Shown here: positions 366-11,977 of the stretch, one piece after another
Layout: each line of letters begins with the position of its first letter
Position numbering within the stretch: position 1 is the first letter of the stretch
Origin: a virus
Direction: 5' to 3' (one strand)
UHGV virus genome: UHGV-0189183
DNA length: 14,900 bases
The notes under the pieces: generated by a model
What the model was told of the DNA's origin: nothing
Database searches by the model: none
Seen by the model: the letters and a program-made list of their open reading frames with translations, nothing else
Program-made: the position numbers and the translations under genes

Positions 366-387
366 TGGTGTCCCTGCAGGAATCGAA
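366..387. repeat. Distal attachment-site core: displaced copy of the tRNA-Arg 3' end (TGGTGTCCCTGCAGGAATCGAA)
   Basis: Near-identical to 11892-11914 (one C fewer in the C-run). Its reverse complement ends GGGACACCA, i.e. an acceptor-stem 3' side plus CCA. Confidence 0.8.
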
Positions 388-438
388 AATGTATTTATAT
401 CTATGTTTTATAAAGGTAATTTAAGTGGTTGTTTTGTT

Positions 439-460
439 GATACCATCATGGATACCATCA
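439..460 (+). repeat. Two tandem GATACCATCA copies (putative integrase arm-type sites, left end)
   Basis: GATACCATCA at 439-448 and 451-460. The same motif recurs next to the integrase gene at 11729-11779. Confidence 0.5.
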
Positions 461-912
461 AACGATAAAAACATCTCATTAAGGCCATAGAGATCGGCCT
501 ATTCCGTCAGTTTCAATAATGAATAGTTGGATGAAAAAACGACGGGGCAGGGGGCTGGCAAATCTGCGAAAAGGTTGAAAAATGCGCAAAAAAGTTATCA
601 CACCCCACGCATTATACAATGCTGCTCGCAAACCAGCGCCAACTCTGGGAAGTCAGGGGGATACACCCTAAAGTATTTTTTTCATTTTATGTATACCAGA
701 ATGGCTTTAAATCACTCACCATCCAGCGCTATAACCGGGTTTAACCGTGTATACCATCCCCCATGTGATATGACGTATTCTCATTCATAAAACCCTTTAT
801 TGTATCGAATTTGACACAATACCCGCCCGCAGTAATCAGACCGTCAAGCAAATATCGTTGTACTGTTCACGACACACCTGATCACTCAAGAATTGTTCAC
901 AGCGAGAAAAAT

Positions 913-1938
913 ATGGATAACCCGGACAAAACTCCCGTACCTGAGGTCACTGTAGCAACAGAACCGCAGCCCTCTGCAGAATGCTTCACCTTTGGCGATC
1001 CCATTCCGGTACTGGACCGGCGCGAGCTGCTTGATTATGTGGAGTGCGTACAGATTGATCGCTGGTATGAACCGCCGGTCAGTTTTGCCGGGCTGGCACG
1101 TACCTACCGCGCTGCCGTGCATCACAGTTCACCAATTGCTGTTAAGCGTGACATTCTCAGCAGCACCTTCATCCCACACCGCTTGCTCAGCCAGCAGTCT
1201 TTCGCCCGTTTCGTTCAGGATTATCTGGTGTTTGGTAATGCTTATCTGGAAAAGCGCACCAACTGGCTGGGTGGTGTCCTCTCACTGGAGCCAGCGCTGG
1301 CAAAGTATACCCGGCGCGGCGTTGACCTAGAATCCTACTGGTTTGTGAACTACGGCCTGACGATGCAGCCTTATGAGTTCACCAGAGGCAACATTTTTCA
1401 TCTGATGGAGCCGGATATTAACCAAGAGATTTACGGGCTGCCCGGTTATCTCTCCGCCATTCCGTCAACCCTGCTCAACGAGTCCGCAACGCTGTTCCGT
1501 CGGAAATATTACATCAACGGCAGCCATGTAGGCTTCATCATGTACATGACCGACGCTGCGCAGAATCAGGAGGATGTGAACAACATCCGCAAGGCAATGA
1601 AAAGTGCCAAAGGACCGGGCAATTTTCGCAATCTCTTTATGTACTCACCCAATGGCAAAAAAGATGGCATCCAGATCATCCCCCTATCCGAAGTTGCGGC
1701 GAAAGATGAGTTTCTGAACATCAAGAACGTGAGCCGTGATGACATGATGGCAGCGCACCGCGTGCCACCGCAGATGATGGGAATCATGCCGAGTAACGTT
1801 GGGGGGTTTGGAGATGTAGAAAAAGCCAGCCGTGTTTTTGTTCGCAACGAACTGATGCCGCTACAGAAGCGACTGCAGGAACTGAACGACTGGTGTGGCG
1901 AGAAAATAATTAGTTTTGAACCTTATACACTTGAGTAA
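913..1938 (+). CDS. Cargo protein resembling a P2-family (gpQ / PBSX-type) portal protein; an in-frame TTG at 811 is an alternative start
   Basis: Long ORF of normal GC content. Conserved-looking blocks (FGDPIPVLDRRELLDY, WYEPPVSF, LVFGNAYLEK, NESATLFRRKYY) match what I recall of P2-type portal proteins. Size about 341 aa from the ATG at 913. Family assignment is from memory and not verified. Confidence 0.45.
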   Translation: MDNPDKTPVPEVTVATEPQPSAECFTFGDPIPVLDRRELLDYVECVQIDRWYEPPVSFAGLARTYRAAVHHSSPIAVKRDILSSTFIPHRLLSQQSFARFVQDYLVFGNAYLEKRTNWLGGVLSLEPALAKYTRRGVDLESYWFVNYGLTMQPYEFTRGNIFHLMEPDINQEIYGLPGYLSAIPSTLLNESATLFRRKYYINGSHVGFIMYMTDAAQNQEDVNNIRKAMKSAKGPGNFRNLFMYSPNGKKDGIQIIPLSEVAAKDEFLNIKNVSRDDMMAAHRVPPQMMGIMPSNVGGFGDVEKASRVFVRNELMPLQKRLQELNDWCGEKIISFEPYTLE

Positions 1939-1966
1939 TAAAAAAGCCACTGAAGTGGCTTTTTTA
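1939..1966. terminator. Bidirectional rho-independent terminator shared by the convergent portal-like and DUF4062 genes
   Basis: A-run, stem GCCAC (1946-1950), loop TGAA, stem GTGGC (1955-1959), T-run 1960-1965. Confidence 0.6.
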
Positions 1967-1967
1967 T

Positions 1968-2933
1968 TTAATCGGGAAGGTTACGTAAATCGATATATGA
2001 GAAAAATGCGGCACCTTTCTCAGTTAACTCGTATCGAAGATATCGATTTTCCATTATTGGCGTTGTTTTGAGTAGGCCATGGACCATCATTAACGTGCAA
2101 ACATTTCTAACCAAAAAACCAGCTAAGTCAGTCGAATTTGATCTTAACCCAGAAAGAATAGTTCCTCTATACAGCAAAATGAGTCGCATTGCTGTTGTTT
2201 TAACTGGCTCTGGAGTTTCGGATAATTTTGTCGGGATCGTTAACTGTGTATTTTCAAATAGCTTATATATTTTACTGAACTCTTCCTCAGATGGTTTTTT
2301 TACTATAGCTTTACTTTCAGGGGAACGTGCAGCTCTGAGAAGTTCAACCTCAGATTTTAAAGCTTCATTTTCCTTCGTTAGTTTAGATATTTGTTCTATT
2401 AACACACTTGACTCTGATATTTCCTTTCCAGAAACCCACCCAAGGAGATTTCTCTCGACACCAATTTGAGGAAGTGTCTTATAAATTGATATTTGTATAT
2501 CTTTAATATCCCGAAAAAATTCCACCGGATACCCCTTGACCTTTTGTTTGAAAGCTTCATATTTTGTCGGGTTATCTAATTCAAGAACTTCCTTACCAAC
2601 TGTTTTAACTTTTTCATCTAGATATTCGTCATCAATGACTATCGAAAATAGAGGTTTGTTTGTACTTAAAGCATAATCATATTCGAGCTCTGTATAGCAA
2701 TAATCACTGCCGGGAGCAATCGTTCCATAACGCCCTCCCAGAATAAGGATGTAGATATCTGACTCATCTATCCAGCGCTTAATAATTTCTAACTGGCTTC
2801 TGTCTCCAGGCTTAAATAGCTCCATTCCCGCAGGTATATGCCCGGCAGTTAATATGGCACTTACCGCAGCTTGCCTTTCTTCAATGAGGTCTGTAAAAGT
2901 TGATGAAATGAAAACTTGAAATTTCCTATTCAT
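1968..2933 (-). CDS. DUF4062-type N-terminal domain protein with coiled-coil and uncharacterised C-terminal domain (hotspot cargo)
   Basis: 321-aa ORF. N-terminus MNRKFQVFISSTFTDLIEERQAAV carries the FISSTFxDLxxER signature I associate with Pfam DUF4062. Gene is markedly AT-rich relative to the element backbone. Confidence 0.65.
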   Translation of the reverse strand: MNRKFQVFISSTFTDLIEERQAAVSAILTAGHIPAGMELFKPGDRSQLEIIKRWIDESDIYILILGGRYGTIAPGSDYCYTELEYDYALSTNKPLFSIVIDDEYLDEKVKTVGKEVLELDNPTKYEAFKQKVKGYPVEFFRDIKDIQISIYKTLPQIGVERNLLGWVSGKEISESSVLIEQISKLTKENEALKSEVELLRAARSPESKAIVKKPSEEEFSKIYKLFENTQLTIPTKLSETPEPVKTTAMRLILLYRGTILSGLRSNSTDLAGFLVRNVCTLMMVHGLLKTTPIMENRYLRYELTEKGAAFFSYIDLRNLPD

Positions 2934-3331
2934 TTTTTATCCATATAGAGTTATTGTCATCTAACATACCTACAAAATGCTATAGGTAAATTTAAGTTGG
3001 TATTATTAGTCTTTTACTAGTATCTAATGCTGAAAAAGTTGATGAAAGAAAGACATTAGACGCAGATACCAACATCAGAGCATAATCATATGATATAGGT
3101 TAAAGCGTGTTCAAGACCGATTAACGTAAGTTCCCTAGATCTCCCCTCAGCGCGAGCAGCCCCGCCCGCCTGCCCGCTTCGCTTAACAGAATGGTTTTCA
3201 TGCACCCCGTAAATCGCCTCAGGAGCCGCCACACAAGGGCTTTCACGTCAAAAATGATGCATGAGACTCATGCGTTTTCATGCGCCATAGACATGCACTC
3301 ATGCGCTCTCAGGCCAGCCAGGAAAAAGGCG

Positions 3332-3360
3332 TAAAAAATCCCGGTGCCGGGCCGGGATTA
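3332..3360 (-). terminator. Rho-independent terminator ending the Sid/Psu-Ogr operon
   Basis: On the minus strand: stem AATCCCGG, loop, stem CCGGGATT, followed directly by a T-run; about 20 nt past the Ogr-like stop. Confidence 0.55.
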
Positions 3361-3379
3361 GGTAGGCGTTTTTTGCTAA

Positions 3380-3652
3380 TCAGACAGGGATTTGCTGGCG
3401 GCTTGATAACTTTGATGCAGAGCCATAGCGATTGAGCGTTTGCTGTTGTTTTTCCGGCATTTGTGCTTTGTCTGATTCCTGTTCATTGCGCCGGGGCTTC
3501 ATAATTATCTTATCCACACTTTCCAGAGCGGTAAATGTGCAGGAACATTCAAGATTCTGGCACTGATACCATGAGCGTTTAACCGACGGTGCTTCATAGG
3601 CGGTGGTTCTGGCGTGTGCAACGGTGCCGCATTCAGGACATTTCAGCGCCAT
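3380..3652 (-). CDS. Ogr/Delta-family zinc-finger late-gene transcriptional activator
   Basis: 90 aa. C-x2-C-x22-C-x4-C arrangement (CPECGTVAHART...YQCQNLEC) closely matches the P2 Ogr / P4 Delta pattern. Confidence 0.85.
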   Translation of the reverse strand: MALKCPECGTVAHARTTAYEAPSVKRSWYQCQNLECSCTFTALESVDKIIMKPRRNEQESDKAQMPEKQQQTLNRYGSASKLSSRQQIPV

Positions 3653-4413
3653 CAGATACCCTCCATATCACGGTTACGTTTCTGCAGCTCTTCACGTTCC
3701 TGACGGATCTTCATTTTGTGAAGGGCCGCCGGTGACGGGATTTTGCTTAAATCGACACGAGCCGCATAATCCGGCGCAACGCCCGCCAGTTTAAACACAG
3801 GGTCCAGTTCCGGCATCGCAGTGTTAGCAAGAGCCGGTTTGGTGATATGTTTGTGAATAAAGTCTTTCAGCAGTGTGTCCGGGTCATTAACTGAATTCAC
3901 CACCCCCACAACGGCACTGGCTTCCCGCCCCATTGTGGTTTTGAGCAGGCTCAGTGTCTGGATTAACGCCTTACCATGCGCCTGCATGAAGTCTTCCCAG
4001 ATTTGCTTTGCGCGAATTTCCACAAGGGTGTTATGTGCGCTGATATACTGCCCGGCTAATTTCCCGGCTTCCTGCGGTAATAAGGCATTTTCGCTTTCCT
4101 GAGCTGCCAGCAGTTCATCAAAATCCTCAAGCGTTTCTCGTCCCAGCGCAATTTCCGTGCGCAGTTTTTTCATTTCCTTTGAGACTACGCCCTGACTTTC
4201 ACGAAACAGCGTGCGCCACTCCTCATTCAGCGCGTTCGTCGTGGCTTCCATTTCAGCCCGGCGCTGGCGGATTGTCGCAATATTATCCGCTGCCGCTTTC
4301 TGCCGACGACGTGCTTCAAGCCATGCGCTTCTGGCCGTGTTCAGGGTTTCCATTGCCTGCTGCGTTACAGCCGGAAAAGTGGAAAGGTTGTTATTCTCTG
4401 CGGTGTTGTTCAT
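3652..4413 (-). CDS. Sid/Psu-family protein (P4 capsid-size determination / polarity suppression family)
   Basis: 253 aa, strong AGGAG ribosome-binding site before the ATG at 4413. Immediately upstream of the Ogr/Delta-like gene, as sid is in P4. Helical, charge-rich sequence resembling my recollection of P4 Psu/Sid. Which paralogue it is cannot be resolved. Confidence 0.6.
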   Translation of the reverse strand: MNNTAENNNLSTFPAVTQQAMETLNTARSAWLEARRRQKAAADNIATIRQRRAEMEATTNALNEEWRTLFRESQGVVSKEMKKLRTEIALGRETLEDFDELLAAQESENALLPQEAGKLAGQYISAHNTLVEIRAKQIWEDFMQAHGKALIQTLSLLKTTMGREASAVVGVVNSVNDPDTLLKDFIHKHITKPALANTAMPELDPVFKLAGVAPDYAARVDLSKIPSPAALHKMKIRQEREELQKRNRDMEGI

Positions 4414-4447
4414 GACTTCTCCTGCCGGGTTGGTTCGTTACGTCAAT

Positions 4448-4465
4448 TGTGTCGTGACTGACACA
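4448..4465. promoter_or_regulatory. Dyad TGTGTC-N6-GACACA (TGT-N12-ACA type) upstream of the Sid/Psu-like gene
   Basis: Perfect 6-bp inverted arms. The TGT-N12-ACA layout is that of Ogr/Delta activator sites in P2/P4 late promoters. Confidence 0.4.
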
Positions 4466-4588
4466 AGCGCACTATCGGCGCTCAGTGTGTGGTGGCTGGC
4501 ACAACGGGCGTTTGCGGTTATTCAGACGCGGCCATGACAGCCAGCCAGATAAAAATGCCTCTGTTTCAGCCTGCTTTATGTCCCGGAT

Positions 4589-4787
4589 GCGGTGAAACAG
4601 GTGGAACAGGTGTTACAGCATTGTTTTGTAAAACATTTATATGCACATCACAGGTGAAACATCGCAGGTAACAAGGTGGAACAGCGGATCGGCTGGCGTT
4701 CCACCTGTTCCACCTCACTATTTCAGAAGGTGAAACAGGTTTAGCCCTTGTAAAATACGGGTGTTCCACCTGTTTCACCTGTTACCC
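4589..4787. repeat. Iteron cluster (putative origin / alpha-protein binding sites, P4 ori/crr-like)
   Basis: At least seven copies of GGTG(A/G)AACAG in both orientations, e.g. 4591-4612, 4651-4660, 4675-4684, 4699-4716, 4729-4740, 4763-4782. Reverse complement TGTT(C/T)CACC resembles the P4 octamer TGTTCACC. Confidence 0.65.
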
Positions 4788-4813
4788 TTAATAAATAAGA
4801 CTCACGCAAAGCC

Positions 4814-7486
4814 TTAACCCGGCACCTCGCTGTTGAAGACATAGAGTCTGCGGGGATTCATCTCTGGCGGGCGAATGGTTGTCTGCAGCTTGCCATCGGT
4901 GGAGGGCAGCAGGTATCCACGATCCGCGCACAGACGCGCCACCTTGCGCGGGTCAAATCCCCGGCAGATTTCTTTCCAGCCGGACGGCATGACGTAGAAC
5001 GTGGTGACGGCCTCCGTGCCCTGCGCGGTACTGCCTTTCTCCACCCTGCGCCAGCCCACCATATTGCCGGGGCGGTTACGCTCGTCGTGCCAGTCAGCAA
5101 AGCGGCTGTACTGATTCGCGGTAAAGAAGCTGCGTACCTGCTCCAGTGCGGCAATATCTTCCTGATTGGCGGTGTGCCCGCGATCTTTCAGCCATGCGTT
5201 CAGGCAGACGCGGGTTGCCCGCAGCGCTTCACCCTCAGGCCAGCCGGTAATACCCAGCCGGGTTGCCAGCTCGCCCGCCATCGCCACCAGTGCAAAGCGG
5301 TTCACAGCCCGGCCTACCTGATTACCCGCATCTTTCGGGGTCAGGGCGGCTGTATATTCCTTCATCAGTGACTTTGCCTGTGCCGTCAGCCCGTTAAGGT
5401 CAGCGGTCAGGGCTTTCAGCCACTCCCTGAACGGCGAACCGTAGTAGCTGGACGTGGCCCACTCCAGATGTTCCGCCAGAGCCTTGCCGCTGTCGAAGCC
5501 GTGCAGCTCCTCAAATACGCCAAATTTCCCGGAATCGCTGGGGATCTGGATCATCCTGACTTCCATCCCGGCAAAGGTACGCTCACCGGCTTTTGCCGCA
5601 TGTTCGGTCAGTGACAGCTCGCCGGTTGAAAAGAACAGCAGCCGCCACTGCTTACGGGTGCGCAGCTCACCGTCCGTACCGGCACGGCCCTTGCCCTGAC
5701 CGTTTGCCAGCATGTAGGCGATATTACCCGCCTCGCGTCCGTCCACCTCCCGGATCTCATCAAGCATCATGGCGGCATCGTTGCGGCGGCTGGCGCATCC
5801 CTCCAGCGCGTTGCCGGTTGCCCGCCACGTCTGCCAGTAATCAGGCCCGCCACAAACGGAGGTTGCCGCTTTCATGGTGGTGGTCTTACCGTCAGTCGAT
5901 TCCCCCTTGAGGTGGTAGCCGCCGCCGTCCATCCCAACCAGCCGTAACAGGGGTGCAGCAAAGGCCAGACTGACGGCAAACGCCACGCGGGAGTTACCGG
6001 TGCAGTAACGGGAAACGTGCTCCCGCCATTCCTCCGTTGTACCTGACACACGGAAATCGCGCCCCTGCACGGAAGTGGTCTGGAGAATGACACCCTCTGC
6101 ACCTTCACCGCTGACCTCATCCTGCAGGACGTAAACCTGACCATGCCAGCCAGTGCGGCTGACGCAGGTCACGCGGCGTTCCGGTTTACACAGCGAGATA
6201 TATTCCATCAGGCGGGCGCGGGCCTCACCGGTGGTGCTGATATAGGACAGCCCGTTAACCAGCAGTACCCGGCGTAGTTCCTCACCGCTACCACTGAGCA
6301 TTTCCATCGGCATCGCCCAGCGGCGGCGCTCTCCCCATGTATCTTCCCACTCCAGCAGTCGCCCGAAATTACCGCCATCAGCATCGCAGGTGATTGCCGT
6401 CACGCGCAACGGGTTGCATATTTTGACGTTCTGGATCTCCGTCTCACCGTTGCGCTGTACCTGTTTTTCATACCAGAGATATTCCTGGGTAAGACGGAAC
6501 CCGTGCGGCAACTGCGTGCGGCCTTCTCCGCACAGTACAAGACCGTTACGAAAGGCTTCACGGGCACGTGTAATACCGTGCTCACGGTGGAAGTCATTCC
6601 AGTCAGCTTTAATTTCTCCCGGTGGCAGCGTCACCCAGCCACCGACTGATTTTGCCGCCCGTTCAGCAAAGGATCTGCCGGGATTCTCGCCCCCGTCCTG
6701 AAAATCGTTATCACCGGCGATGATAATTTTTACCTCAGGCCAGCGTGCCCGCAGCGCCTGTGCGACGTTGGGCAGGTTGCCCGCCGATATGGCCGCCACT
6801 ACGCATCCGGCGGTGAGCTGGCTTACCGTCAACGCCGTGGCGTAACCTTCGGTAATCACCACCTGTACCGGCGGTTCAGACGGTAACGGGCTGAGCGCCA
6901 CAAACGCGCCTTTCATCGTGCTGCCGGGCAGTATGCTTTTTTCACCCGTCGGGGCGATAAGCTGTGCACCGGTCACGGCTCCGGCGTTTGTCGTGAGCGG
7001 TAACAGCAGGGAACCGGCAGGGAAATCCTTACCACTGATATGCTGCACGCTCCCGGTCAGGGAGGCCGGGTATCCGGCGAACCCTTTTCCGGTCAGATAG
7101 GGGCTTTCTCCCGTGTGACTCTCTTTCATCAGGGCCGCCACGGTAAGGCTCATATCGCGTTTAGGGGCTTTTTGCCTGGCGGGCTTAACGGGCAGTTCCT
7201 GCACATCCGGCACATTAAGCACCTGCGCCACCTCCTGCGCTGCCTTTCTGATGCCGTAACCGGTTATGAGCTTAACCAGATCCAGACCATCACCATTGCC
7301 GCACTGGCTGCAAATCCACGTCCCGCGCCCGTCGAGGTCATCGAGGCGGAAGCGATCCTTGCCCCCACATTTCGGGCAGGGACCGTGCCTGCCGTTTTCA
7401 GGTACATCAATACGCAGCATCTGCAGAATGACGGGCCATTTTCCCCGCGCTGCGGCTGAAATCTGCGTAACCGTCTGTGTTGTCAT
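4814..7486 (-). CDS. P4 alpha-type primase/helicase replication protein
   Basis: 890-aa ORF. N-terminal zinc-binding motif CPKCGG...CSQCG. Large size and position in the replication operon next to the iterons match P4-family alpha proteins. Confidence 0.85.
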   Translation of the reverse strand: MTTQTVTQISAAARGKWPVILQMLRIDVPENGRHGPCPKCGGKDRFRLDDLDGRGTWICSQCGNGDGLDLVKLITGYGIRKAAQEVAQVLNVPDVQELPVKPARQKAPKRDMSLTVAALMKESHTGESPYLTGKGFAGYPASLTGSVQHISGKDFPAGSLLLPLTTNAGAVTGAQLIAPTGEKSILPGSTMKGAFVALSPLPSEPPVQVVITEGYATALTVSQLTAGCVVAAISAGNLPNVAQALRARWPEVKIIIAGDNDFQDGGENPGRSFAERAAKSVGGWVTLPPGEIKADWNDFHREHGITRAREAFRNGLVLCGEGRTQLPHGFRLTQEYLWYEKQVQRNGETEIQNVKICNPLRVTAITCDADGGNFGRLLEWEDTWGERRRWAMPMEMLSGSGEELRRVLLVNGLSYISTTGEARARLMEYISLCKPERRVTCVSRTGWHGQVYVLQDEVSGEGAEGVILQTTSVQGRDFRVSGTTEEWREHVSRYCTGNSRVAFAVSLAFAAPLLRLVGMDGGGYHLKGESTDGKTTTMKAATSVCGGPDYWQTWRATGNALEGCASRRNDAAMMLDEIREVDGREAGNIAYMLANGQGKGRAGTDGELRTRKQWRLLFFSTGELSLTEHAAKAGERTFAGMEVRMIQIPSDSGKFGVFEELHGFDSGKALAEHLEWATSSYYGSPFREWLKALTADLNGLTAQAKSLMKEYTAALTPKDAGNQVGRAVNRFALVAMAGELATRLGITGWPEGEALRATRVCLNAWLKDRGHTANQEDIAALEQVRSFFTANQYSRFADWHDERNRPGNMVGWRRVEKGSTAQGTEAVTTFYVMPSGWKEICRGFDPRKVARLCADRGYLLPSTDGKLQTTIRPPEMNPRRLYVFNSEVPG

Positions 7487-7866
7487 ATTTCCCCCTGATA
7501 CAGCGATACACCCGAGCTGCAGAAGTCATCAAATGCCGCCGGAAGTGTGCGGTACAGCTCCGCCATCACTTCACAGCCGCGCACAGTCAGTACCGGTGGC
7601 GCGGTCAGCAATGATGGCTCCAGCATGTCAGTCAGCAGCGCCAGTGCAGCCGCTGCTCCCTGTGCTTCGCCATATTCGTTAATCAGTGCGCACTCGATAT
7701 GCAGGGCAATGGCCATTTCAATACGTTCAACCGTCAGGCTGTGCGGACCATAGTGATCGCAGCCGGTTTCGGTCAGCGCTTTCTGGCGCCAGGCCGATGC
7801 AATAGCCCGCCGGTAAAGCGCAGTGGTCATTTCTGCCGGAAAAATAGAAACCTGCGGCTGGTTCAT
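7483..7866 (-). CDS. Hypothetical protein, replication-operon member
   Basis: 127-aa ORF. Stop overlaps the alpha start and its start overlaps the upstream gene stop (translational coupling). Confidence 0.5.
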   Translation of the reverse strand: MNQPQVSIFPAEMTTALYRRAIASAWRQKALTETGCDHYGPHSLTVERIEMAIALHIECALINEYGEAQGAAAALALLTDMLEPSLLTAPPVLTVRGCEVMAELYRTLPAAFDDFCSSGVSLYQGEI

Positions 7867-8147
7867 TGGGTGCCTCCTTCAATCAGTTCGCAACTGTGCG
7901 CAATATCCGTCAAATCTGCCCGCAGGTACTCCATCAGCGCGGCGATGCCTGGCGCACATCCTGCATCCAGCGTTCCGCCCTGCGAGGGGTATTCAGAAAA
8001 GAGAAGCTGCAACATGTCGCAGGCCTTTCTGGCGCGGTCCAGCTTTCCGAAACCGTCCTCTGACAACCCATACGCAAAAGCACCGCTATTGTGTTTTTCA
8101 GGCAAAGCGTGGCCCTGAGCACCGTTGTGCCCGTTTGAAATATTCAT
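7863..8147 (-). CDS. Hypothetical protein, replication-operon member
   Basis: 94-aa ORF, co-oriented and overlapping the next gene by 4 nt. Confidence 0.45.
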   Translation of the reverse strand: MNISNGHNGAQGHALPEKHNSGAFAYGLSEDGFGKLDRARKACDMLQLLFSEYPSQGGTLDAGCAPGIAALMEYLRADLTDIAHSCELIEGGTQ

Positions 8148-8178
8148 CGTGGATTACTCCGTTTTCAGCGGTGTTTTG

Positions 8179-8538
8179 TCAGAGAAACTTTGAATAGTGA
8201 CTGTCGTCAGGTTCAGCAGAACGCCGTATGCTGCGCTCCCGCCAGCGGGTAAATACCACCGACGGATGCAGCGTCAGCGAGCCAGAGCCGCTACCCCCCG
8301 CGGGAGCTAGCGAAGGTTTAAAGAGCGGGGCATTAAACAGGCGCGTATACCGCTGCTCAAACCATGCCAGAGGGCAGGAAGAAAGCTTATTGTCGCTGTC
8401 ATGACGAATCAGCACTTCACAGCTGAATTCAGGGTTAACCAGCGCCACGGAGGGCGAGGCTTCAGTTAATCTGATAATCGTGACAGTCCAGCCACGCTCA
8501 TGCTGCCAGCGTTCGCCGGGTTGCGGATAATTACGCAT
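8179..8538 (-). CDS. Hypothetical protein (start moved to the ATG at 8538)
   Basis: GGAGGTGA ribosome-binding site 5 nt before the ATG at 8538. Overlaps the upstream gene stop by 8 nt. Confidence 0.5.
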   Translation of the reverse strand: MRNYPQPGERWQHERGWTVTIIRLTEASPSVALVNPEFSCEVLIRHDSDNKLSSCPLAWFEQRYTRLFNAPLFKPSLAPAGGSGSGSLTLHPSVVFTRWRERSIRRSAEPDDSHYSKFL

Positions 8539-8707
8539 GTTCACCTCCACAGGGAATGCGACCGGCAAAGCTCAGCACATAGTCCGGGGCAAGTCTGCGC
8601 CGCGCTGAGCGCTCGTTATCTGCGGTGATCCTTAACATCACAGGACGGGCATTGCGTTGACTGCGGTTGATCGCCGCAAATAACCAGGTACACTTCTGTT
8701 TAGCCAT
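8531..8707 (-). CDS. Small P4-family protein, first gene of the leftward operon (possibly Icd-like; uncertain)
   Basis: GAGGT ribosome-binding site before the ATG at 8707 (MAKQKCTWLFAAINRSQ...). About 58 aa. The longer ORF-track start at 8761 has no ribosome-binding site. Confidence 0.4.
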   Translation of the reverse strand: MAKQKCTWLFAAINRSQRNARPVMLRITADNERSARRRLAPDYVLSFAGRIPCGGEHA

Positions 8708-8790
8708 TTTCGTTACCTCATCTAACGCTTTGGTCAGACGCCTCGGCAGTGCCGCAAACACTCCGGGGCGTTGCTATTTTGATTCCTTGT

Positions 8791-8836
8791 GTGTAATGTG
8801 TCATTACACATAAGCACATTACAATAGGTGTAATTG
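8791..8836. promoter_or_regulatory. Operator-like array of TGTAATG/CATTACA half-sites in the divergent promoter region
   Basis: GTGTAATG (8791-8798) and CATTACAC (8802-8809) form an inverted repeat; CATTACA (8817-8823) and TGTAAT (8829-8834) form a second. The array overlaps the AGGTG ribosome-binding site of the RHH gene. Confidence 0.5.
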
Positions 8837-8838
8837 AC

Positions 8839-9018
8839 GTGTCAACACACAAGAACGAAAGACGTGGTAATCCACCATTCCAGTTCAGACTTGACCCTGA
8901 ATTGCGTGAGTTAATGGAAGAAGCACAGCAGCAGGATGGTGATGAATCACTGGCTGCTTGGATCAAACGCATTATCCGCAAAGAGCTACAAAGTCGTGGT
9001 TCCGAACCAAAGAACTGA
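8839..9018 (+). CDS. Ribbon-helix-helix (Arc/MetJ-type) small DNA-binding protein, GTG start; not in the supplied ORF track
   Basis: 59-codon ORF, GTG at 8839 preceded by AGGTG at 8826-8830, stop TGA at 9016-9018. The N-terminal segment PPFQFRLDPELRELMEEAQQQ is typical of an RHH beta-strand and first helix. Confidence 0.5.
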   Translation: MSTHKNERRGNPPFQFRLDPELRELMEEAQQQDGDESLAAWIKRIIRKELQSRGSEPKN

Positions 9019-9026
9019 TAAATACA

Positions 9027-9056
9027 TGGGGAAGATTTTCTTCTTTCCCATTTTTC
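9027..9056 (+). terminator. Weak terminator-like hairpin plus T-run after the RHH gene
   Basis: GGGAAGA / TCTTTCCC imperfect stem with one bulge, followed by TTTTT at 9051-9055. Confidence 0.3.
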
Positions 9057-9069
9057 TAAGGTCGTCATA

Positions 9070-9279
9070 TTATTTATCAGCATCTGAGGATTGAGCTTTT
9101 ACCCACTGTCTAATTTCTTGTGCATCGTAAACAGTTACCCGTTTTGAAATACGTGTGGATTTTGGAAATTCAGGATTGTTTTTTTCCCAGCGCCAGAGAG
9201 TAACTGTGCTTACTTGCAAAAAGTCAGCAGTAGCCCGTGGGCGGGCATGCCCGGTGATAGGGTAAGTTTTTAATGTCAT
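9070..9279 (-). CDS. alpA: AlpA-family transcriptional regulator / excisionase-like protein
   Basis: 69 aa. The segment FLQVSTVTLWRWEKNNPEFPKSTRISKRVTVYDAQEIRQWV matches the AlpA (MerR-like helix-turn-helix) family pattern. Confidence 0.75.
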   Translation of the reverse strand: MTLKTYPITGHARPRATADFLQVSTVTLWRWEKNNPEFPKSTRISKRVTVYDAQEIRQWVKAQSSDADK

Positions 9280-9287
9280 GAAATTAC

Positions 9288-9315
9288 CTGCCGTGTTATG
9301 TAATGAACACGGCAG
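9288..9315. promoter_or_regulatory. Perfect 10-bp inverted repeat CTGCCGTGTT-N8-AACACGGCAG directly upstream of alpA
   Basis: The loop contains TGTAATG. On the minus strand the 3' arm includes the probable alpA ribosome-binding site (AGGT). No flanking T-run, so more likely an operator or translational-control hairpin than a terminator. Confidence 0.45.
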
Positions 9316-9386
9316 ATGATGGCAAGGTTAGGGCTAAATTATCAGTGCCACTATTTTGTTTTTATGATGGTATAAAATATTACCAC

Positions 9387-10439
9387 TTAAAATCTTCCTG
9401 CTTTAGATGAGCTAAGACATTCTTTTATCTTATCTTTTCCAAGTTCAACCTTTGTTTTTGGATTGTTTCTTTCTGCCACGATTTTATCTGCCCACGCGTC
9501 AATAGTCAGTTTTCCTCGTTTTCCATTGCAAGATGCTGGGTCATTTAGTAACCAATAAATAGCTGCTTTGTACACTGCCTCTCTTTTTGTTGCTGATGCT
9601 TCAACATTACCATGCACTCTTCGGATGCTTTCGATGCTGGATACACCACCATTCACATAGCTGGGTAGCTCTTTGCCAACACCGTTATCTAATTTTTCTA
9701 TTTGGTATCTTGTTAAATAGATATCATCCAGTGTTATATTTCCAATAATATTTTTATTAGATGGAGATACTAATCCCTCTATTGATGATAAGCCTTCGAA
9801 AGGGGACATTGCTAATATTACCCACTCATCACTGCCAAATGCAGCATTAGTGAATGGCATATTAGCTTCTTTAAAAGAAATATCATGTGCTAATAGCCTT
9901 GCTTTACCATATACCTTTAGTTCTTTGTATAATGAAGATGTTGGGCTGATGACACATATAGACCACAATCCAGAAAGTAAGATTAATGGGCTTTTTATAT
10001 TTGGTTTGTTTTCTAAATGGTATATTTGTTTTGGAGGTGAAAATGGCTTATCTTCTGTATAATCAATATCGAATTTTGCTTTTGGTATGAAATGGCTTAA
10101 TGCAGATTTATTACTATAGTTTAATACTCTGGGTGGGTACATGTTTTCCCAATCTTTAAAATCTCCACCTTTACGCATCATCATTAGCGCAGCTTCGAAA
10201 CCATTTAATTCTAAGCAAAATTCGATAATTCCAATTTGAGCAAAATGGATAAGGTCATCAATTTGGCAATTAAGTAGTTCAGCAGCTCGTTTTAGGGAGC
10301 AAAATTCCATTACAGGAATACTATTCCTTTCCCAAACATTTAATCGTGTATTATCGCTCATCACGTCACCTGTATGCACATATGGTAAAATGGGGCGAAT
10401 AGCAGACTTTACTACTATTAGCCATTTTCTTATTTTCAA
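9387..10439 (-). CDS. Hypothetical AT-rich cargo protein between integrase and alpA (alternative start at 10361 with AGGTGA ribosome-binding site)
   Basis: 350-aa ORF whose first codon overlaps the integrase stop. Conspicuously AT-rich. No family recognised by eye. Confidence 0.6.
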   Translation of the reverse strand: MKIRKWLIVVKSAIRPILPYVHTGDVMSDNTRLNVWERNSIPVMEFCSLKRAAELLNCQIDDLIHFAQIGIIEFCLELNGFEAALMMMRKGGDFKDWENMYPPRVLNYSNKSALSHFIPKAKFDIDYTEDKPFSPPKQIYHLENKPNIKSPLILLSGLWSICVISPTSSLYKELKVYGKARLLAHDISFKEANMPFTNAAFGSDEWVILAMSPFEGLSSIEGLVSPSNKNIIGNITLDDIYLTRYQIEKLDNGVGKELPSYVNGGVSSIESIRRVHGNVEASATKREAVYKAAIYWLLNDPASCNGKRGKLTIDAWADKIVAERNNPKTKVELGKDKIKECLSSSKAGRF

Positions 10440-11707
10440 ACAACGCGTAGTTTTTTCATTTTATAGGGGGCAATATATCTATCAGTGTTAGCTTCAATAT
10501 AATTAGACCACCATTGCATCATCCGACGACGTTCATGCATATGCTGAGCTAAGTGTACATAAGCGGCTCGCACTTCATTTCGTTCTTGATGGCTCATTTG
10601 CCGTTCTACTGCATCCCTCGACCATAAGCCTGATTCTGTCAGGGCTGAGCACGCCATTGCCCTAAATCCATGAAGGCAAATGTCCACCTGCGTGTCGTAC
10701 CCCATAATTCTTAATGACTTATTAACTGTGTTCTCACTCATTGGTTTGTAAGGGTTACTATCTCCGGGGAAAATAAGTTCATACTCACCACTTATTTTTT
10801 TAATAGCTTCGAGAACATCAATAGCTTCATTAGATAATGGAACATAATGAATACTGCCCATTTTTGCCCCACGCTCTGAATATTTTACCCCATCAATTCT
10901 TTTTCTTTGAGCAGGAATAGTCCACATTGCATTTTCAAAATTAATTTCCTCCCATCTTGCGTGTCTCAGTTCACTGGAGCGAACAAAAGTATGAAGAGAA
11001 AATAATACTGCCAGCTTAGTTAACGGCCTCCCTGTATAGCTATCAATTTTTGATATTAATTCGGGTAATCGTTCTAACGGAAGTGCAGGGCGATGCTTTA
11101 TTTTGGGGCTGGAAATTGCTCCTCTTAGATCATGGGTAGGATTGTATTCAACAATTCCACGCTGAATAGCGTACCGGAAAACGCTTGCAAGAGTAGTTTT
11201 CACTCTTCCTGTTGTTGCTCCAATTCCCTGATCACTCATCCTCACCAATAATGGCAACAGGTCACTTGTTTTTAATGAGTCGATGGGTTTATTTCCGATA
11301 TATGGGAAAATATGATTTTCCATTTCTCTTAAAATTTTAGTGCGGGTAATCTCTTTCCATGAGGGATGGCCTATAGAGCCTTTATGCCACTCTAAAGCGA
11401 TTGTCTGGAATGTAGCAGAGGCGGGTTCTGTTGGCGCTGCTTTTTTAGATACTCTGGGATCAACACCGTCGGCTAAAAGTTGCCTTGCTTCATCTCTACG
11501 CTTACGGGCAAGTGCCAGCGAAACGTCTGGGAAAACGCCCAAAGCCAGCGTAGCTTGTTTGCCGTTAAATCTGTAGTTCATTCGCCATGCCTTGGTCCCG
11601 TTCTTTTTAACTAAAAGATACAGGCTTCCCCCATCCGTCAGTTTGTAGTCTGTTTCTTTGGGTTTAGCGTTTTCAACTTTCTTGGGTGATAGCTCATTTA
11701 GTGCCAT
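10436..11707 (-). CDS. int: P4-type tyrosine integrase (site-specific recombinase)
   Basis: 423 aa. N-terminal arm-binding-type region (YKLTDGGSLYLLVKKNGTKAWRMNYRFNGK) and C-terminal catalytic region (HGFRAMACS...VERQMSH...RAAYVH with the tyrosine). Immediately adjacent to the tRNA gene. Confidence 0.95.
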   Translation of the reverse strand: MALNELSPKKVENAKPKETDYKLTDGGSLYLLVKKNGTKAWRMNYRFNGKQATLALGVFPDVSLALARKRRDEARQLLADGVDPRVSKKAAPTEPASATFQTIALEWHKGSIGHPSWKEITRTKILREMENHIFPYIGNKPIDSLKTSDLLPLLVRMSDQGIGATTGRVKTTLASVFRYAIQRGIVEYNPTHDLRGAISSPKIKHRPALPLERLPELISKIDSYTGRPLTKLAVLFSLHTFVRSSELRHARWEEINFENAMWTIPAQRKRIDGVKYSERGAKMGSIHYVPLSNEAIDVLEAIKKISGEYELIFPGDSNPYKPMSENTVNKSLRIMGYDTQVDICLHGFRAMACSALTESGLWSRDAVERQMSHQERNEVRAAYVHLAQHMHERRRMMQWWSNYIEANTDRYIAPYKMKKLRVV

Positions 11708-11728
11708 GGAGAGTAATCTTTGTTGTCA

Positions 11729-11779
11729 GTTGATGGTATCGGTTTATCGAACCGTGAGTACCATCAACGATACCATCAG
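11729..11779. repeat. Putative integrase arm-type sites between int and the tRNA
   Basis: TGATGGTATC (11731-11740, inverted), TACCATCAAC (11759-11768) and GATACCATCAG (11769-11779); same motif as 439-460. Confidence 0.5.
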
Positions 11780-11891
11780 AATCATGTAATGTCATGAAAT
11801 CAACTGAAACCATGTTCAAGGCGACAGGCCCTGATTTTGCTGGTTTTAAGGGGGGAGGTGAAGTGTGTTGAAACGTGATGAAATGAAAAGG

Positions 11892-11966
11892 TATTGTCCC
11901 CTGCAGGAATCGAACCTGCAATTAGCCCTTAGGAGGGGCTCGTTATATCCATTTAACTAAGAGGAC
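11892..11966 (-). tRNA. argW: tRNA-Arg, anticodon CCU (argW-type); the three nucleotides after the discriminator read ATA, not CCA
   Basis: The reverse complement, read from 11966 (5' end) to 11892 (3' end), gives GTCCTCTTAGTTAAATGGATATAACGAGCCCCTCCTAAGGGCTAATTGCAGGTTCGATTCCTGCAGGGGAC-A-ATA. It folds as a cloverleaf with a CCU anticodon and a TTCGATT T-loop. Confidence 0.85.
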
Positions 11967-11977
11967 AATGCGGCATG

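What the first reader, a model, noticed from the sequence alone, without database searches (positions are those of the whole stretch)
9271..9315. Same TGTAATG-containing motif recurs at alpA, at the integrase upstream region and in the operator array
The 14-mer TAATGTCATGAAAT occurs at 9271-9284, overlapping the alpA start codon, and again at 11787-11800 upstream of int. TGTAATG or its complement also occurs in the alpA-proximal hairpin loop (9299-9305), at 11785-11791 and four times in the 8791-8836 array. A given 7-mer is expected only about twice in 15 kb on both strands, so this clustering in regulatory regions suggests one regulator (perhaps the RHH protein) co-ordinates int, alpA and the replication operon. 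The perfect 10-bp inverted repeat at 9288-9315 would sequester the alpA ribosome-binding site if formed in RNA.
Basis: seen in the sequence. Interest (0 to 1): 0.4.

Follow-up and report, generated by a model that had tools for sequence, protein, structure and literature searches.

The report
Shared attachment-arm and alpA-leader motif
In a P4-like satellite prophage of E. coli, one short DNA motif sits both in the arm of the integration site next to the integrase gene and at the start of the alpA regulator gene, most likely as binding sites for AlpA itself. The nearby TGTAATG array is a separate operator for a different small repressor, so this is a fairly ordinary variation on known phage P4 biology.

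Summary
**Context.** The window is a P4-like satellite inserted in argW (tRNA-Arg CCT).

**Observation.** The exact 14-mer is at both stated places and the 10-bp inverted repeat is real. TGTAATG is exact only three times in the array, not four, and is not enriched outside it.

**The array.** It co-varies perfectly with the allele of the adjacent Arc-like RHH gene:
- allele A carries GTGTAAT/CATTACAC
- allele B carries ATGGTAATTACCAT
- elements with no RHH gene have no array

**The alpA and int-proximal copies ignore RHH.**
- One relative (L160) has the same att arm and alpA leader as the window, but RHH allele B and no TGTAATG in its operator.
- Elements without RHH keep the att copy.

The "one RHH regulator for all three" idea is therefore not supported.

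**The int-proximal copy.** It is the core of an invariant 24-bp block between the tRNA core and the Int arm-type repeats. It overlaps a predicted int −35 hexamer.

**The alpA copy.** It spans the Shine-Dalgarno sequence to codon 3. It follows a conserved, co-varying 12-bp hairpin that buries the Shine-Dalgarno sequence and carries a shortened motif in its loop.

**Best reading (about 0.5).** These are sites for AlpA, the homologue of P4 Vis, acting as excision factor, int regulator and autoregulator. This is a new member of a known kind, of modest interest.

The parts
11785..11808 (-). S2 block of the int-proximal attachment arm: TTTCAG-TTGA-TTTCAT-GACA-TTACAT read on the minus strand.
   Evidence: The most conserved block outside the Int arm sites in an alignment of 11 distinct att arms: TTCAnnTnnnTTCATGACATTnCA, columns 107-130 of A4. 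Present with every alpA allele and with or without RHH.
9271..9290 (-). alpA-proximal copy of S2: CAGGTAATTTCATGACATTA on the minus strand, covering the Shine-Dalgarno sequence, the spacer, the ATG and codons 2-3 of alpA.
   Evidence: 18 of 20 identical to 11787-11806 (D13). Leader-against-own-att similarity gives p about 0.003-0.007 in four of the five A1-allele elements tested and 0.1 in the fifth, L169. 16-mer and 12-mer exact matches in L002 and L168.
9286..9317 (-). alpA leader hairpin: a 12-bp stem (10 perfect pairs plus G.U and U-A) with the 8-nt loop CAUUACAU. The Shine-Dalgarno AGGU lies in the last four pairs. The loop plus flank, TTCATTACATAACA, is a 2-mismatch copy of the att 14-mer.
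   Evidence: Fold of -18.4 kcal/mol, z = -4.9. 95.5% of cells paired in 15 distinct sequences, two pairs with compensatory changes, covariation 0.174 against 0.134 with 1 of 500 shuffles reaching it. Different stems at the same place in alleles A2 and A4. Loop match.
9070..9279 (-). alpA: a 69-aa AlpA/Vis-family winged-helix protein, the proposed binder of the motif.
   Evidence: Pfam PF05930, 29.3 bits against a cutoff of 21. phrog_66 'excisionase and transcriptional regulator'. PDB 8c3t 'AlpA family phage regulatory protein'. The segment VTLWRW is invariant in all alleles.
10436..11707 (-). int: a P4-type tyrosine integrase with an N-terminal arm-binding domain.
   Evidence: Pfam Arm-DNA-bind_3, Phage_int_M and Phage_integrase.
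11731..11778 (-). Int arm-type sites: two direct TGATGGTAT repeats (11758-11778) and one inverted ATACCATCA (11731-11741). The predicted extended -10 TGgTATCGT (11767-11775) lies in the first repeat.
   Evidence: Repeats D12 and I5. Invariant in A4, but changed together to TGCGGGTAT / ATACCCGCA in L005. Same layout as the annotated P4 attP arm repeats.
11859..11883 (-). S1: the core-proximal cluster of TTTCA boxes (CATTTCATCACGTTTCAACAC). A 3-mismatch relative of the 14-mer sits at 11869-11882.
   Evidence: columns 32-56. In L002 and L168 this position carries TTCATTACATAAC and TCATTACACAA, identical to each element's own alpA hairpin loop.
11899..11914 (.). Attachment core CCCTGCAGGAATCGAA at the 3' end of argW (tRNA at 11894-11967, minus strand). 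The second copy at 372-387 marks the other end of the 11.5-kb element.
   Evidence: D6.
441..460 (-). Distal (P') arm: two direct Int arm-type repeats. No S2-like motif is present here.
   Evidence: (D12).
8791..8836 (.). Operator array of the RHH repressor: four heptads in the order TGTAATG, CATTACA, CATTACA, TGTAATT. They lie between the divergent RHH gene and the icd-like/primase operon and overlap promoter-like sites on both strands.
   Evidence: The array is replaced by ATGGTAATTACCAT palindromes wherever the RHH allele is B.
8839..9018 (+). Arc-like ribbon-helix-helix gene (59 aa, allele A, NPPFQFRL).
   Evidence: phrog_228 'Arc-like repressor', E = 4.9e-6. RefSeq names it a YlcI/YnfO family protein in some records.

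Best explanation
**What the element is.** The 11.5-kb element between 372 and 11914 is a P4-like satellite integrated in argW.

**What the 14-mer is.** It is the core of a 20-24-bp block (S2).
- One copy lies in the int-proximal arm of the attachment site, between the tRNA core and the Int arm-type repeats. There it overlaps the predicted -35 hexamer of the int promoter.
- A second copy covers the Shine-Dalgarno-to-codon-3 stretch of alpA.
- A shortened copy sits in the loop of a conserved leader hairpin just upstream of alpA.

**Proposed mechanism.** I propose that these are binding sites of the element's own AlpA protein, the homologue of phage P4 Vis.
- When alpA is switched on by a helper phage, AlpA binds the att arm. 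It shapes the excisive complex with Int and changes int transcription, probably by repression, since the site sits on the -35 hexamer.
- AlpA also binds its own 5' end and so limits its own synthesis.
- The hairpin additionally keeps the alpA Shine-Dalgarno sequence paired in transcripts that read in from int and the cargo gene.

**The TGTAATG array is a different device.** It is the operator of the Arc-like RHH repressor, which controls the divergent RHH and replication promoters.

**Shown here:**
- the anatomy of the sites
- their conservation
- the independence of the alpA and att copies from RHH
- the co-variation of RHH allele with operator sequence
- the co-variation of the hairpin stem

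**Inferred:**
- that AlpA is the binder
- the sign of its effect on int
- the position of the promoters
For: **Element identity.** Psu/Sid-like, Delta/Ogr-like, primase, DUF5375, Icd-like, AlpA and Int genes lie next to tRNA-Arg, with a 16-bp core repeat.

**S2 as a constrained site.**
- It is an invariant block in 11 distinct att arms whose flanks vary freely.
- The invariant stretch is 14 bp or more, longer than a -35 hexamer needs.
- It contains TTCA boxes 10 bp apart. A second pair of TTTCA boxes lies near the core.
- It lies core-side of the Int arm sites, which themselves co-vary as a set in L005.

**Clustering of motif copies.**
- Copies with up to 3 mismatches cluster in the att arm and alpA leader: 6 against 1.49 expected, 0 of 200 shuffles.
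- The same holds in every relative with the window's alpA allele.

**Link between leader and att arm.**
- L002 and L168 show two collinear shared oligos: loop equals S1 (13- and 11-mer) and start equals S2 (16- and 12-mer), p about 0.002.
- The loop and S1 carry the same T/C difference in those two elements.
- Allele A2 (L004) shows an independent loop-to-S1 similarity, p about 0.003.
- The allele A4 (L025) loop TTTCATGACGTTACAT differs from the att S2 sequence TTTCATGACATTACAT of the window at a single base, 15 of 16.

**AlpA as the candidate binder.**
- The conserved AlpA segment VTLWRW is invariant across all alleles, as is S2. That this segment is the DNA-recognition helix is my own assignment, not tested here.
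- P4 Vis binds the P4 attP region (gel shift and DNase footprint), is needed for excision, also binds RNA, and represses Pint (PMC2603039, PMC7286903).
- P4 has the same arm-repeat layout, with a -10 between the arm repeats.
- In KplE1, also at argW, attL overlaps the int promoter, and Int and the RDF repress it (PMC2951348).
- A PICI AlpA activates its own promoter (PMC6092414).

**Independence from RHH:**
Against: - No binding data exist for this protein.
- Alleles A3 and A5 show no significant leader-to-att similarity. The alpA-proximal copy is therefore a property of one or two lineages, and its copies inside allele A1 are not independent observations.
- A 20-23-nt near-identity is longer than typical shared binding sites. 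The same test on P4, where Vis is known to act at both places, finds nothing significant (longest shared word 7, p = 0.65). Common descent or gene conversion could explain the length.
- The Pint prediction passes the scan only in the window-type arm, not in L002 or L012, where the -10 reads TATAAG.
- The window pairs alpA allele A1 with an att arm whose S1 matches allele A2 better, so a strict S1-AlpA pairing is not required for maintenance.
- CP4-57 AlpA was reported to raise int expression, and EcCICFT073 AlpA had no effect on Pint (PMC6092414). The sign of regulation is therefore open.
Confidence: 0.5

Rival explanations
1. There is no common factor. S2 is conserved because it is the int promoter (-35 and flanks) and part of the intasome architecture. 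The alpA-start copy is a relic of recombination or gene conversion, or a chance similarity held in place by alpA coding and ribosome-binding constraints.
For: - ATGACA within S2 is a 5-of-6 match to the -35 consensus, 17 bp from a TG-extended -10.
- Exact 14-mer repeats occur by chance in about a third of shuffled windows.
- The alpA copy is absent from alleles A3 and A5.
- Nine of the 14 bases at alpA are the start codon and two codons.
- The near-identity is long, 21 of 23 in L002, as expected for descent.
Against: - The invariant block is 14-24 bp, much more than a hexamer.
- L002 and L168 have two separate collinear matches, including loop-to-S1 with a shared T/C difference.
- Independent similarities occur in alleles A2 and A4.
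- Five of the six near-matches in the window fall in just these two regulatory regions.
Confidence: 0.2
2. The motif works in RNA. AlpA, like P4 Vis, binds RNA. It recognises UUCAU(G/U)ACAU exposed in the leader hairpin loop and at the alpA initiation region, and in any int transcript that starts upstream of S2. It thereby controls translation or stability. The hairpin exists to present the loop.
For: - The hairpin is conserved with compensatory changes, and its loop length varies (8, 17 or 21 nt), which suits RNA better than a dimer operator.
- The loop carries an att-related sequence in alleles A1, A2 and A4.
- The Shine-Dalgarno sequence is in the stem.
- All copies except one 3-mismatch antisense overlap at the alpA start lie on the sense strand.
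- P4 Vis is reported to bind RNA transcripts (PMC2603039).
Against: - With the predicted Pint, S2 lies upstream of the transcription start, so it would not be in int mRNA.
- A -10-like hexamer abuts the stem in 6 of 12 alleles, so alpA's own transcript may lack the 5' arm.
- Wobble pairs against A.C mismatches (my count from the sequences: about 7 against 4 events) do not decide the strand.
- There is no Rfam family here.
Confidence: 0.15
3. A helper-phage protein (a Cox-like excisionase/activator or another early factor) binds both sites. It switches on alpA and assists excision, as P2 Cox activates P4 PLL.
For: - alpA expression in related islands is induced by helper phages rather than by SOS (PMC6092414, PMC10803314).
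- Phased direct boxes of the kind seen here are typical of Cox/Apl-type proteins (PMC7498355 abstract).
Against: - S2 is invariant across elements from Escherichia, Pantoea, Enterobacter and Buttiauxella, which probably use different helpers.
- No helper is available to test.
- The Cox-box consensus as I recall it (TTAAAG/CNCA) does not fit S2.
Confidence: 0.1
4. One reading: the RHH protein binds TGTAATG at the array, at the alpA hairpin loop and upstream of int, co-ordinating all three.
For: CATTACA is exact in the loop and in S2 and equals an array half-site. The RHH protein is an Arc-like repressor.
Against: - RHH allele B elements have ATGGTAATTACCAT operators with no TGTAATG, yet keep the same alpA leader (L160, L019, L168). 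Where the att arm is in the contig (L160, L168) it is kept too.
- Elements without RHH keep the att motif.
- The heptads at alpA and att are single, without the paired partner seen in the operator.
- There is no 7-mer enrichment outside the array.
Confidence: 0.03

Closest known systems
Phage P4 Vis (ORF88): excisionase that binds the attP region, represses Pint and regulates its own late promoter PLL
   Same: - AlpA-family protein in a P4-type satellite.
- int lies next to the att arm, with one inverted and two direct arm repeats.
- Candidate sites lie between the arm repeats and the core, and again at the 5' end of the regulator's own gene.
- A promoter -10 lies among the arm repeats.
   Different: - The proteins are only distantly related: a tblastn of the phage collection at E <= 1e-3 returned six distant AlpA-family hits, none of them P4 Vis.
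- The site sequences are unrelated (P4 has CCGGATA/GTCCG-type words).
- Here alpA is separated from the replication operon by a convergent RHH gene with its own operator.
- The near-identity between the two sites is much longer than anything in P4.
KplE1 (CPS-53) recombination module at argW: attL overlaps the intS promoter, which IntS and the RDF TorI repress
   Same: - Same tRNA target.
- int lies directly next to the tRNA, with its upstream region inside the attachment arm.
- RDF-type sites are expected to overlap int control elements (PMC2951348).
   Different: - A different element (a P4-like satellite rather than a prophage) and a different integrase.
- The RDF here is an AlpA-type protein encoded 2.4 kb away, with a second motif copy at its own start.
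- No experimental transcription start site is available.
AlpA of Gram-negative PICIs (EcCICFT073) and PICMIs
   Same: A small AlpA protein, induced by the helper, is necessary for excision and induction. It activates its own promoter in EcCICFT073 (PMC6092414, PMC10803314).
   Different: - No binding sites are defined in those papers.
- EcCICFT073 AlpA did not affect Pint.
- The element here carries P4-type capsid-size and late-control genes.
Arc/Mnt/omega-type ribbon-helix-helix repressors with repeated short operator units between divergent promoters
   Same: A 59-aa Arc-like protein next to four heptad units in mixed orientation that overlap promoter-like sites. Operator and protein co-vary.
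   Different: Binding is untested. This RHH appears to take the place that RNA immunity (CI RNA) has in P4, and no C4/CI-type RNA was found.

Membership tests
AlpA/Vis-type RDF-regulator with sites in the att arm and at its own gene | Element encodes an AlpA-family (PF05930) winged-helix protein | tested here: met
   29.3 bits against a cutoff of 21; phrog_66; PDB 8c3t, E = 0.004.
AlpA/Vis-type RDF-regulator with sites in the att arm and at its own gene | Conserved non-Int motif in the int-proximal arm, between the arm-type sites and the core | tested here: met
   S2 block invariant in 11 distinct arms.
AlpA/Vis-type RDF-regulator with sites in the att arm and at its own gene | Related motif at the regulator's own promoter or leader | tested here: inconclusive
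   Significant in four of five A1 elements tested and in allele A2, and visible in A4. Absent in A3 and A5.
AlpA/Vis-type RDF-regulator with sites in the att arm and at its own gene | The protein binds these sites and is required for excision | not testable with these tools
   Needs gel-shift, footprint and excision assays.
KplE1-type module (att arm overlaps the int promoter) | int promoter lies inside the attachment arm and overlaps recombination-protein sites | tested here: inconclusive
   Predicted ATGACA-17-TGgTATCGT in the window. The same position fails the scan in L002 and L012, where the -10 reads TATAAG. No transcription start data.
RHH (Arc-like) repressor-operator pair | RHH protein adjacent to repeated short inverted units that overlap its own and a divergent promoter | tested here: met
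RHH (Arc-like) repressor-operator pair | Operator specificity follows the protein | tested here: met
   Allele A goes with GTGTAAT/CATTACAC (6 distinct elements), allele B with ATGGTAATTACCAT (5), and no RHH gene with no array (9).
Intrinsic (Rho-independent) terminator | G+C-rich stem followed directly by a run of U | tested here: not met
   The tail is GUAAUUUCAUG. The site is not called by the scan, and relatives have no U run.
Shine-Dalgarno-sequestering leader hairpin | Shine-Dalgarno sequence paired in a stable stem conserved by compensatory change | tested here: met
   AGGU lies in the last four pairs. 95.5% of cells paired, two compensatory pairs, covariation with 1 of 500 shuffles reaching it. 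Alternative stems in alleles A2 and A4.
Shine-Dalgarno-sequestering leader hairpin | The full hairpin is present in the alpA mRNA | not testable with these tools
   The promoter is unknown. A -10-like hexamer abuts the stem in 6 of 12 alleles. There is no terminator between the upstream gene and alpA.
P4 CI RNA / C4-type antisense immunity (seqA-seqB-seqC) | Complementary repeats in one transcript, or a match to the RNA family | tested here: not met
   The copies are direct, not complementary. Rfam finds only the tRNA.
Ogr/Delta-activated late promoter | TGT-N12-ACA dyad centred about 55 bp upstream of the start (consensus recalled from the P2/P4 literature) | tested here: not met
   The dyad here is TGT-N10-ACA, centred 22 nt before the alpA ATG.

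The most novel reading that the evidence does not exclude
AlpA reads the same sequence in two chemical forms. It reads double-stranded DNA in the attachment arm, for excision and int control. It reads single-stranded RNA exposed in the loop of its own leader hairpin and at its own start codon, for translational autoregulation. One small winged-helix protein would then couple excision to a self-limiting pulse of its own synthesis. The hairpin stem and the loop motif would co-evolve with the att arm as modules are shuffled among satellites.
Probability: 0.12. Interest if true: 0.6.

Novelty: new member of a known kind. Interest (0 to 1): 0.3.

Why it matters
P4-like satellites are present in a large share of Enterobacterales genomes (PMC8628076), yet no binding site is defined for AlpA in the satellite papers I read (PMC6092414, PMC10803314, PMC11773190).

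This analysis offers three things:
- a concrete, testable candidate site (TTCATGACATTACA and its phased TTCA boxes) at the two places where P4 Vis is known to act
- a conserved leader hairpin that may gate alpA translation
- a clean separation between that circuit and the RHH immunity-type operator, supported by natural allele swaps

If confirmed, it would explain how excision, int supply and alpA level are tied together in this satellite lineage. It would also give markers for predicting cross-talk between co-resident satellites. It does not change the general picture set by P4 and KplE1.

Tried and rejected
- **Scan of IMG/VR for the exact 14-mer TTCATGACATTACA.** Only 4 of the 120 are from this element family and the rest are chance hits. 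It added no diversity.
- **Shared-word test on P4 itself** (vis leader against attP arm). The longest word is 7, p = 0.65. The method does not recover Vis sites there, so long identity is not a general hallmark of such sites.
- **Rfam search of the whole window at E <= 1.** Only the tRNA was found, with nothing at the alpA or icd leaders.
- **Structure prediction of AlpA from alignment A1.** I did not pursue it, since Pfam, PHROG and PDB matches already place the protein.
- **Small ORF starting at the S2 ATG (11795, minus strand).** It is open in all relatives. However, the differences are non-synonymous, most of it is made of the conserved arm sites, and it lies upstream of the predicted start. 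I rejected it as a gene.
- **IHF consensus (WATCARNNNNTTR) at S2.** I found no match by eye in the window or L002.
- **Hairpin as an intrinsic terminator or an Ogr/Delta site.** Rejected; see the membership tests.
- **Strand of the hairpin from wobble against A.C counts.** About 7 against 4 events, by my own count from the sequences, so not decisive. The + strand also folds.
- **Palindromic operator co-evolving with the AlpA allele.** I considered this for the inverted repeat. It is disfavoured by the variable arm spacing (8, 17, 21 nt) but not excluded.
- **Literature.** The primary P4 Vis papers (Polo 1996, Cali 2004, Piazzolla 2006) are not held. What I say about Vis rests on how PMC2603039, PMC7286903 and PMC6092414 describe them.

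Full report
**What the window is.** Bases 372-11914 are a P4-like satellite prophage of Escherichia coli inserted at the 3' end of argW.
- The tRNA-Arg (CCT) gene is at 11894-11967 on the minus strand.
- The 16-bp core CCCTGCAGGAATCGAA is repeated at 372-387 and 11899-11914 (D6).
- Reading away from the tRNA on the minus strand, the genes are:
  - a P4-type integrase (10436-11707)
  - a variable cargo gene (9387-10439)
  - alpA (9070-9279)
  - a convergent 59-aa Arc-like RHH gene on the plus strand (8839-9018)
  - an operon with an Icd-like protein, two small proteins, DUF5375 and a primase of 890 aa (4814-8707)
  - a Psu/Sid-like gene and a Delta/Ogr-like gene
- Ten complete E. coli genomes carry nearly the same stretch, 99.4-100% identical over at least 90% of it. 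About 63 carry a diverged version at the same site.

**Check of the observation.**
- The 14-mer is exact at both places and the match runs to 18 of 20 bases.
- The 10-bp inverted repeat is perfect. In alpA-sense RNA it grows to 12 pairs that include the Shine-Dalgarno AGGU.
- TGTAATG is exact three times in the array, not four. There is a further copy inside a gene, and overall enrichment is marginal: 6 against 2.35 expected, with 10 of 200 shuffles reaching that.
- Without the array there is no enrichment.
- A repeated exact 14-mer is not unusual by itself.
- What is unusual is the clustering. Near-matches to the att form of the motif number 6 against 1.49 expected, with 0 of 200 shuffles. 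Five of the six lie in the att arm or the alpA leader, and four of those five are on the sense strand.

**Relatives.** I collected elements at argW from E. coli, Pantoea, Enterobacter, Buttiauxella, IMG/VR and metagenomes.
- They fall into five alpA allele classes, A1-A5, with 57-100% protein identity.
- There are several att-arm types.
- The RHH gene has three states: allele A, allele B (55% identical), or absent.
- These modules assort independently, which makes the collection a set of natural swap experiments.

**The array belongs to the RHH protein.**
- Every element with RHH allele A has the GTGTAAT/CATTACAC units.
- Every element with allele B has ATGGTAATTACCAT palindromes at the same place.
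- Elements without the gene have neither.
- The units overlap promoter-like sites on both strands.
- This is what an autoregulated Arc-like repressor of the divergent replication operon should look like.

**The alpA and int copies do not belong to the RHH protein.**
- L160 has the window's att arm and alpA leader, including both motif copies, but RHH allele B and no TGTAATG in its operator. L019 and L168 behave alike.
- Elements with no RHH gene keep the att copy.

**What the int-proximal copy is.** An alignment of 11 distinct att arms shows these invariant blocks:
- the core
- two TTTCA boxes 10-11 bp apart near the core (S1 region)
- a 24-bp block, TTCAnnTnnnTTCATGACATTnCA (S2, 11785-11808)
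- two direct Int arm-type repeats, TGATGGTAT
- GGTTCGATA
- an inverted arm repeat next to the int ATG

The arm repeats change together in L005 to TGCGGGTAT / ATACCCGCA while S2 stays, so S2 is not an Int arm site. The layout of one inverted and two direct repeats on the int side, and two direct repeats on the far side, is that of P4 attP. S2 contains ATGACA, 17 bp from TGgTATCGT inside the first arm repeat, which scores as a promoter in the window. It does not score in L002 or L012, where the -10 is TATAAG. In P4, a CATAAT hexamer likewise sits between the arm repeats.

**What the alpA-proximal copies are.**
- In allele A1, which is the window's allele, the 20-mer CAGGTAATTTCATGACATTA spans the Shine-Dalgarno sequence to codon 3.
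- Just upstream is the hairpin. In 15 distinct sequences, 95.5% of cells pair.
- Two positions show compensatory changes, C-G to U-A and G-C to A-U. The covariation score is reached by 1 of 500 shuffles.
- Alleles A2 and A4 have quite different stems at the same place.
- The loop is 8, 17 or 21 nt, which argues for pairing rather than a dimer operator, although the latter is not excluded.
- The 3' arm always ends in GCAGGT(G/A)A, that is, the Shine-Dalgarno sequence.
- The loop carries an att-related sequence in alleles A1, A2 and A4:
  - window: TTCATTACATAACA, 2 mismatches to S2
  - L025: TTTCATGACGTTACAT
  - L004: a 19-nt similarity to its own S1, p about 0.003
  - L002: a 13-mer identical to its own S1
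  - L168: an 11-mer identical to its own S1, with a matching T/C difference between L002 and L168
- Alleles A3 and A5 show no such similarity.

**Mechanism.**
- The simplest account is a protein that reads S1/S2-type sequences both in the att arm and at the 5' end of alpA.
- AlpA is present in every element. Its conserved segment VTLWRW, which I take to be the recognition helix, is invariant, as is S2.
- Its P4 homologue Vis is described as binding the attP region, being needed for excision, repressing Pint and binding RNA (PMC2603039, PMC7286903).
- KplE1 at the same tRNA gene shows int repression by Int and its RDF from sites in attL (PMC2951348).
- I therefore propose AlpA as excision factor, int modulator and autoregulator. 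The hairpin would keep alpA untranslated in read-through transcripts.
- The binder, the sign of regulation and the promoter positions are inferences. The rivals are:
  - a promoter-only role for S2, with a historical copy at alpA
  - an RNA-level role
  - a helper-encoded binder
  - the RHH model, which the data contradict

**Comparison and verdict.**
- This works like the P4 Vis circuit and the KplE1 module, with an Arc-like repressor in place of P4's RNA immunity. No CI/C4-type RNA was detected.
- It is a new member of a known kind. The unusually long identity between the two sites and the motif-bearing hairpin loop are the only features that go beyond the textbook picture.
- Interest is modest.

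Noticed in passing
window 4588-4780: Dense direct and inverted repeats of GGTGAAACAGGTGGAACA just downstream of the primase gene (which ends at 4814). This is probably the cis-replication (crr/ori-type) iteron region of the satellite, as found downstream of alpha in P4.
   Followed up: no
window 2891-2915, 3030-3054 and 11866-11890 (minus strand): A TTTTCATTTCATCA(A/C) family. One copy abuts the att core (it is the S1 region). Two lie in the long intergenic stretch between the DUF4062 gene and the Delta/Ogr-like gene. If AlpA reads TTTCA boxes, these could be further sites, for example at a late promoter or a cos-proximal region.
   Followed up: partly
window 11694-11795 (minus strand): A 33-codon ORF starts at the ATG inside the S2 motif and ends a few codons past the int ATG in the +1 frame. 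In the relatives it is open for at least 25 codons (it stops about 20 nt before the int ATG in L012 and L173). Differences are non-synonymous and it lies upstream of the predicted int start, so it is probably not a gene.
   Followed up: partly
window 11745-11753 (minus strand): An invariant GGTTCGATA between the direct and inverted Int arm repeats resembles the tRNA T-loop and core sequence GGTTCGATTCC. It may be a core-type Int site or part of the int promoter or leader.
   Followed up: no
window 9316-9321 (minus strand), and the same position in L002, L169, L005, L012, L173: A -10-like hexamer (nAnnAT) ends exactly at the first base of the hairpin stem in 6 of 12 alleles, despite unrelated upstream sequence. 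A weak -35 lies 16-18 bp away. A proximal alpA promoter would start inside the 5' arm and give an mRNA with a free Shine-Dalgarno sequence, whereas read-through transcripts would have it paired.
   Followed up: partly
window 811-1938 (+) and 1968-2933 (-): The variable region next to the far att end carries a full-length P2-type portal protein homologue (phrog_68, E = 7e-169) and a DUF4062 protein. A portal gene is an odd cargo for a satellite that uses its helper's capsid. It may be a decoy or interference function.
   Followed up: no
L160, L019, L020, L004 compared with the window: The att/int, alpA and RHH/operator modules recombine freely: alleles A1 and A2 of alpA each occur with RHH allele A and with allele B. 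The window pairs alpA allele A1 with an att arm whose S1 matches the allele A2 loop better, so the window element looks like a recombinant.
   Followed up: partly
window 8707-8845: On the minus strand a perfect TTGACA (8840-8845, overlapping the RHH GTG start) lies 18 bp from TAATGT. In RHH allele B elements the same TTGACA lies 17 bp from TATATT. This is a better candidate for the replication-operon promoter than the site found by the scan. It would put one operator palindrome at about +1 to +19 of the transcript.
   Followed up: no
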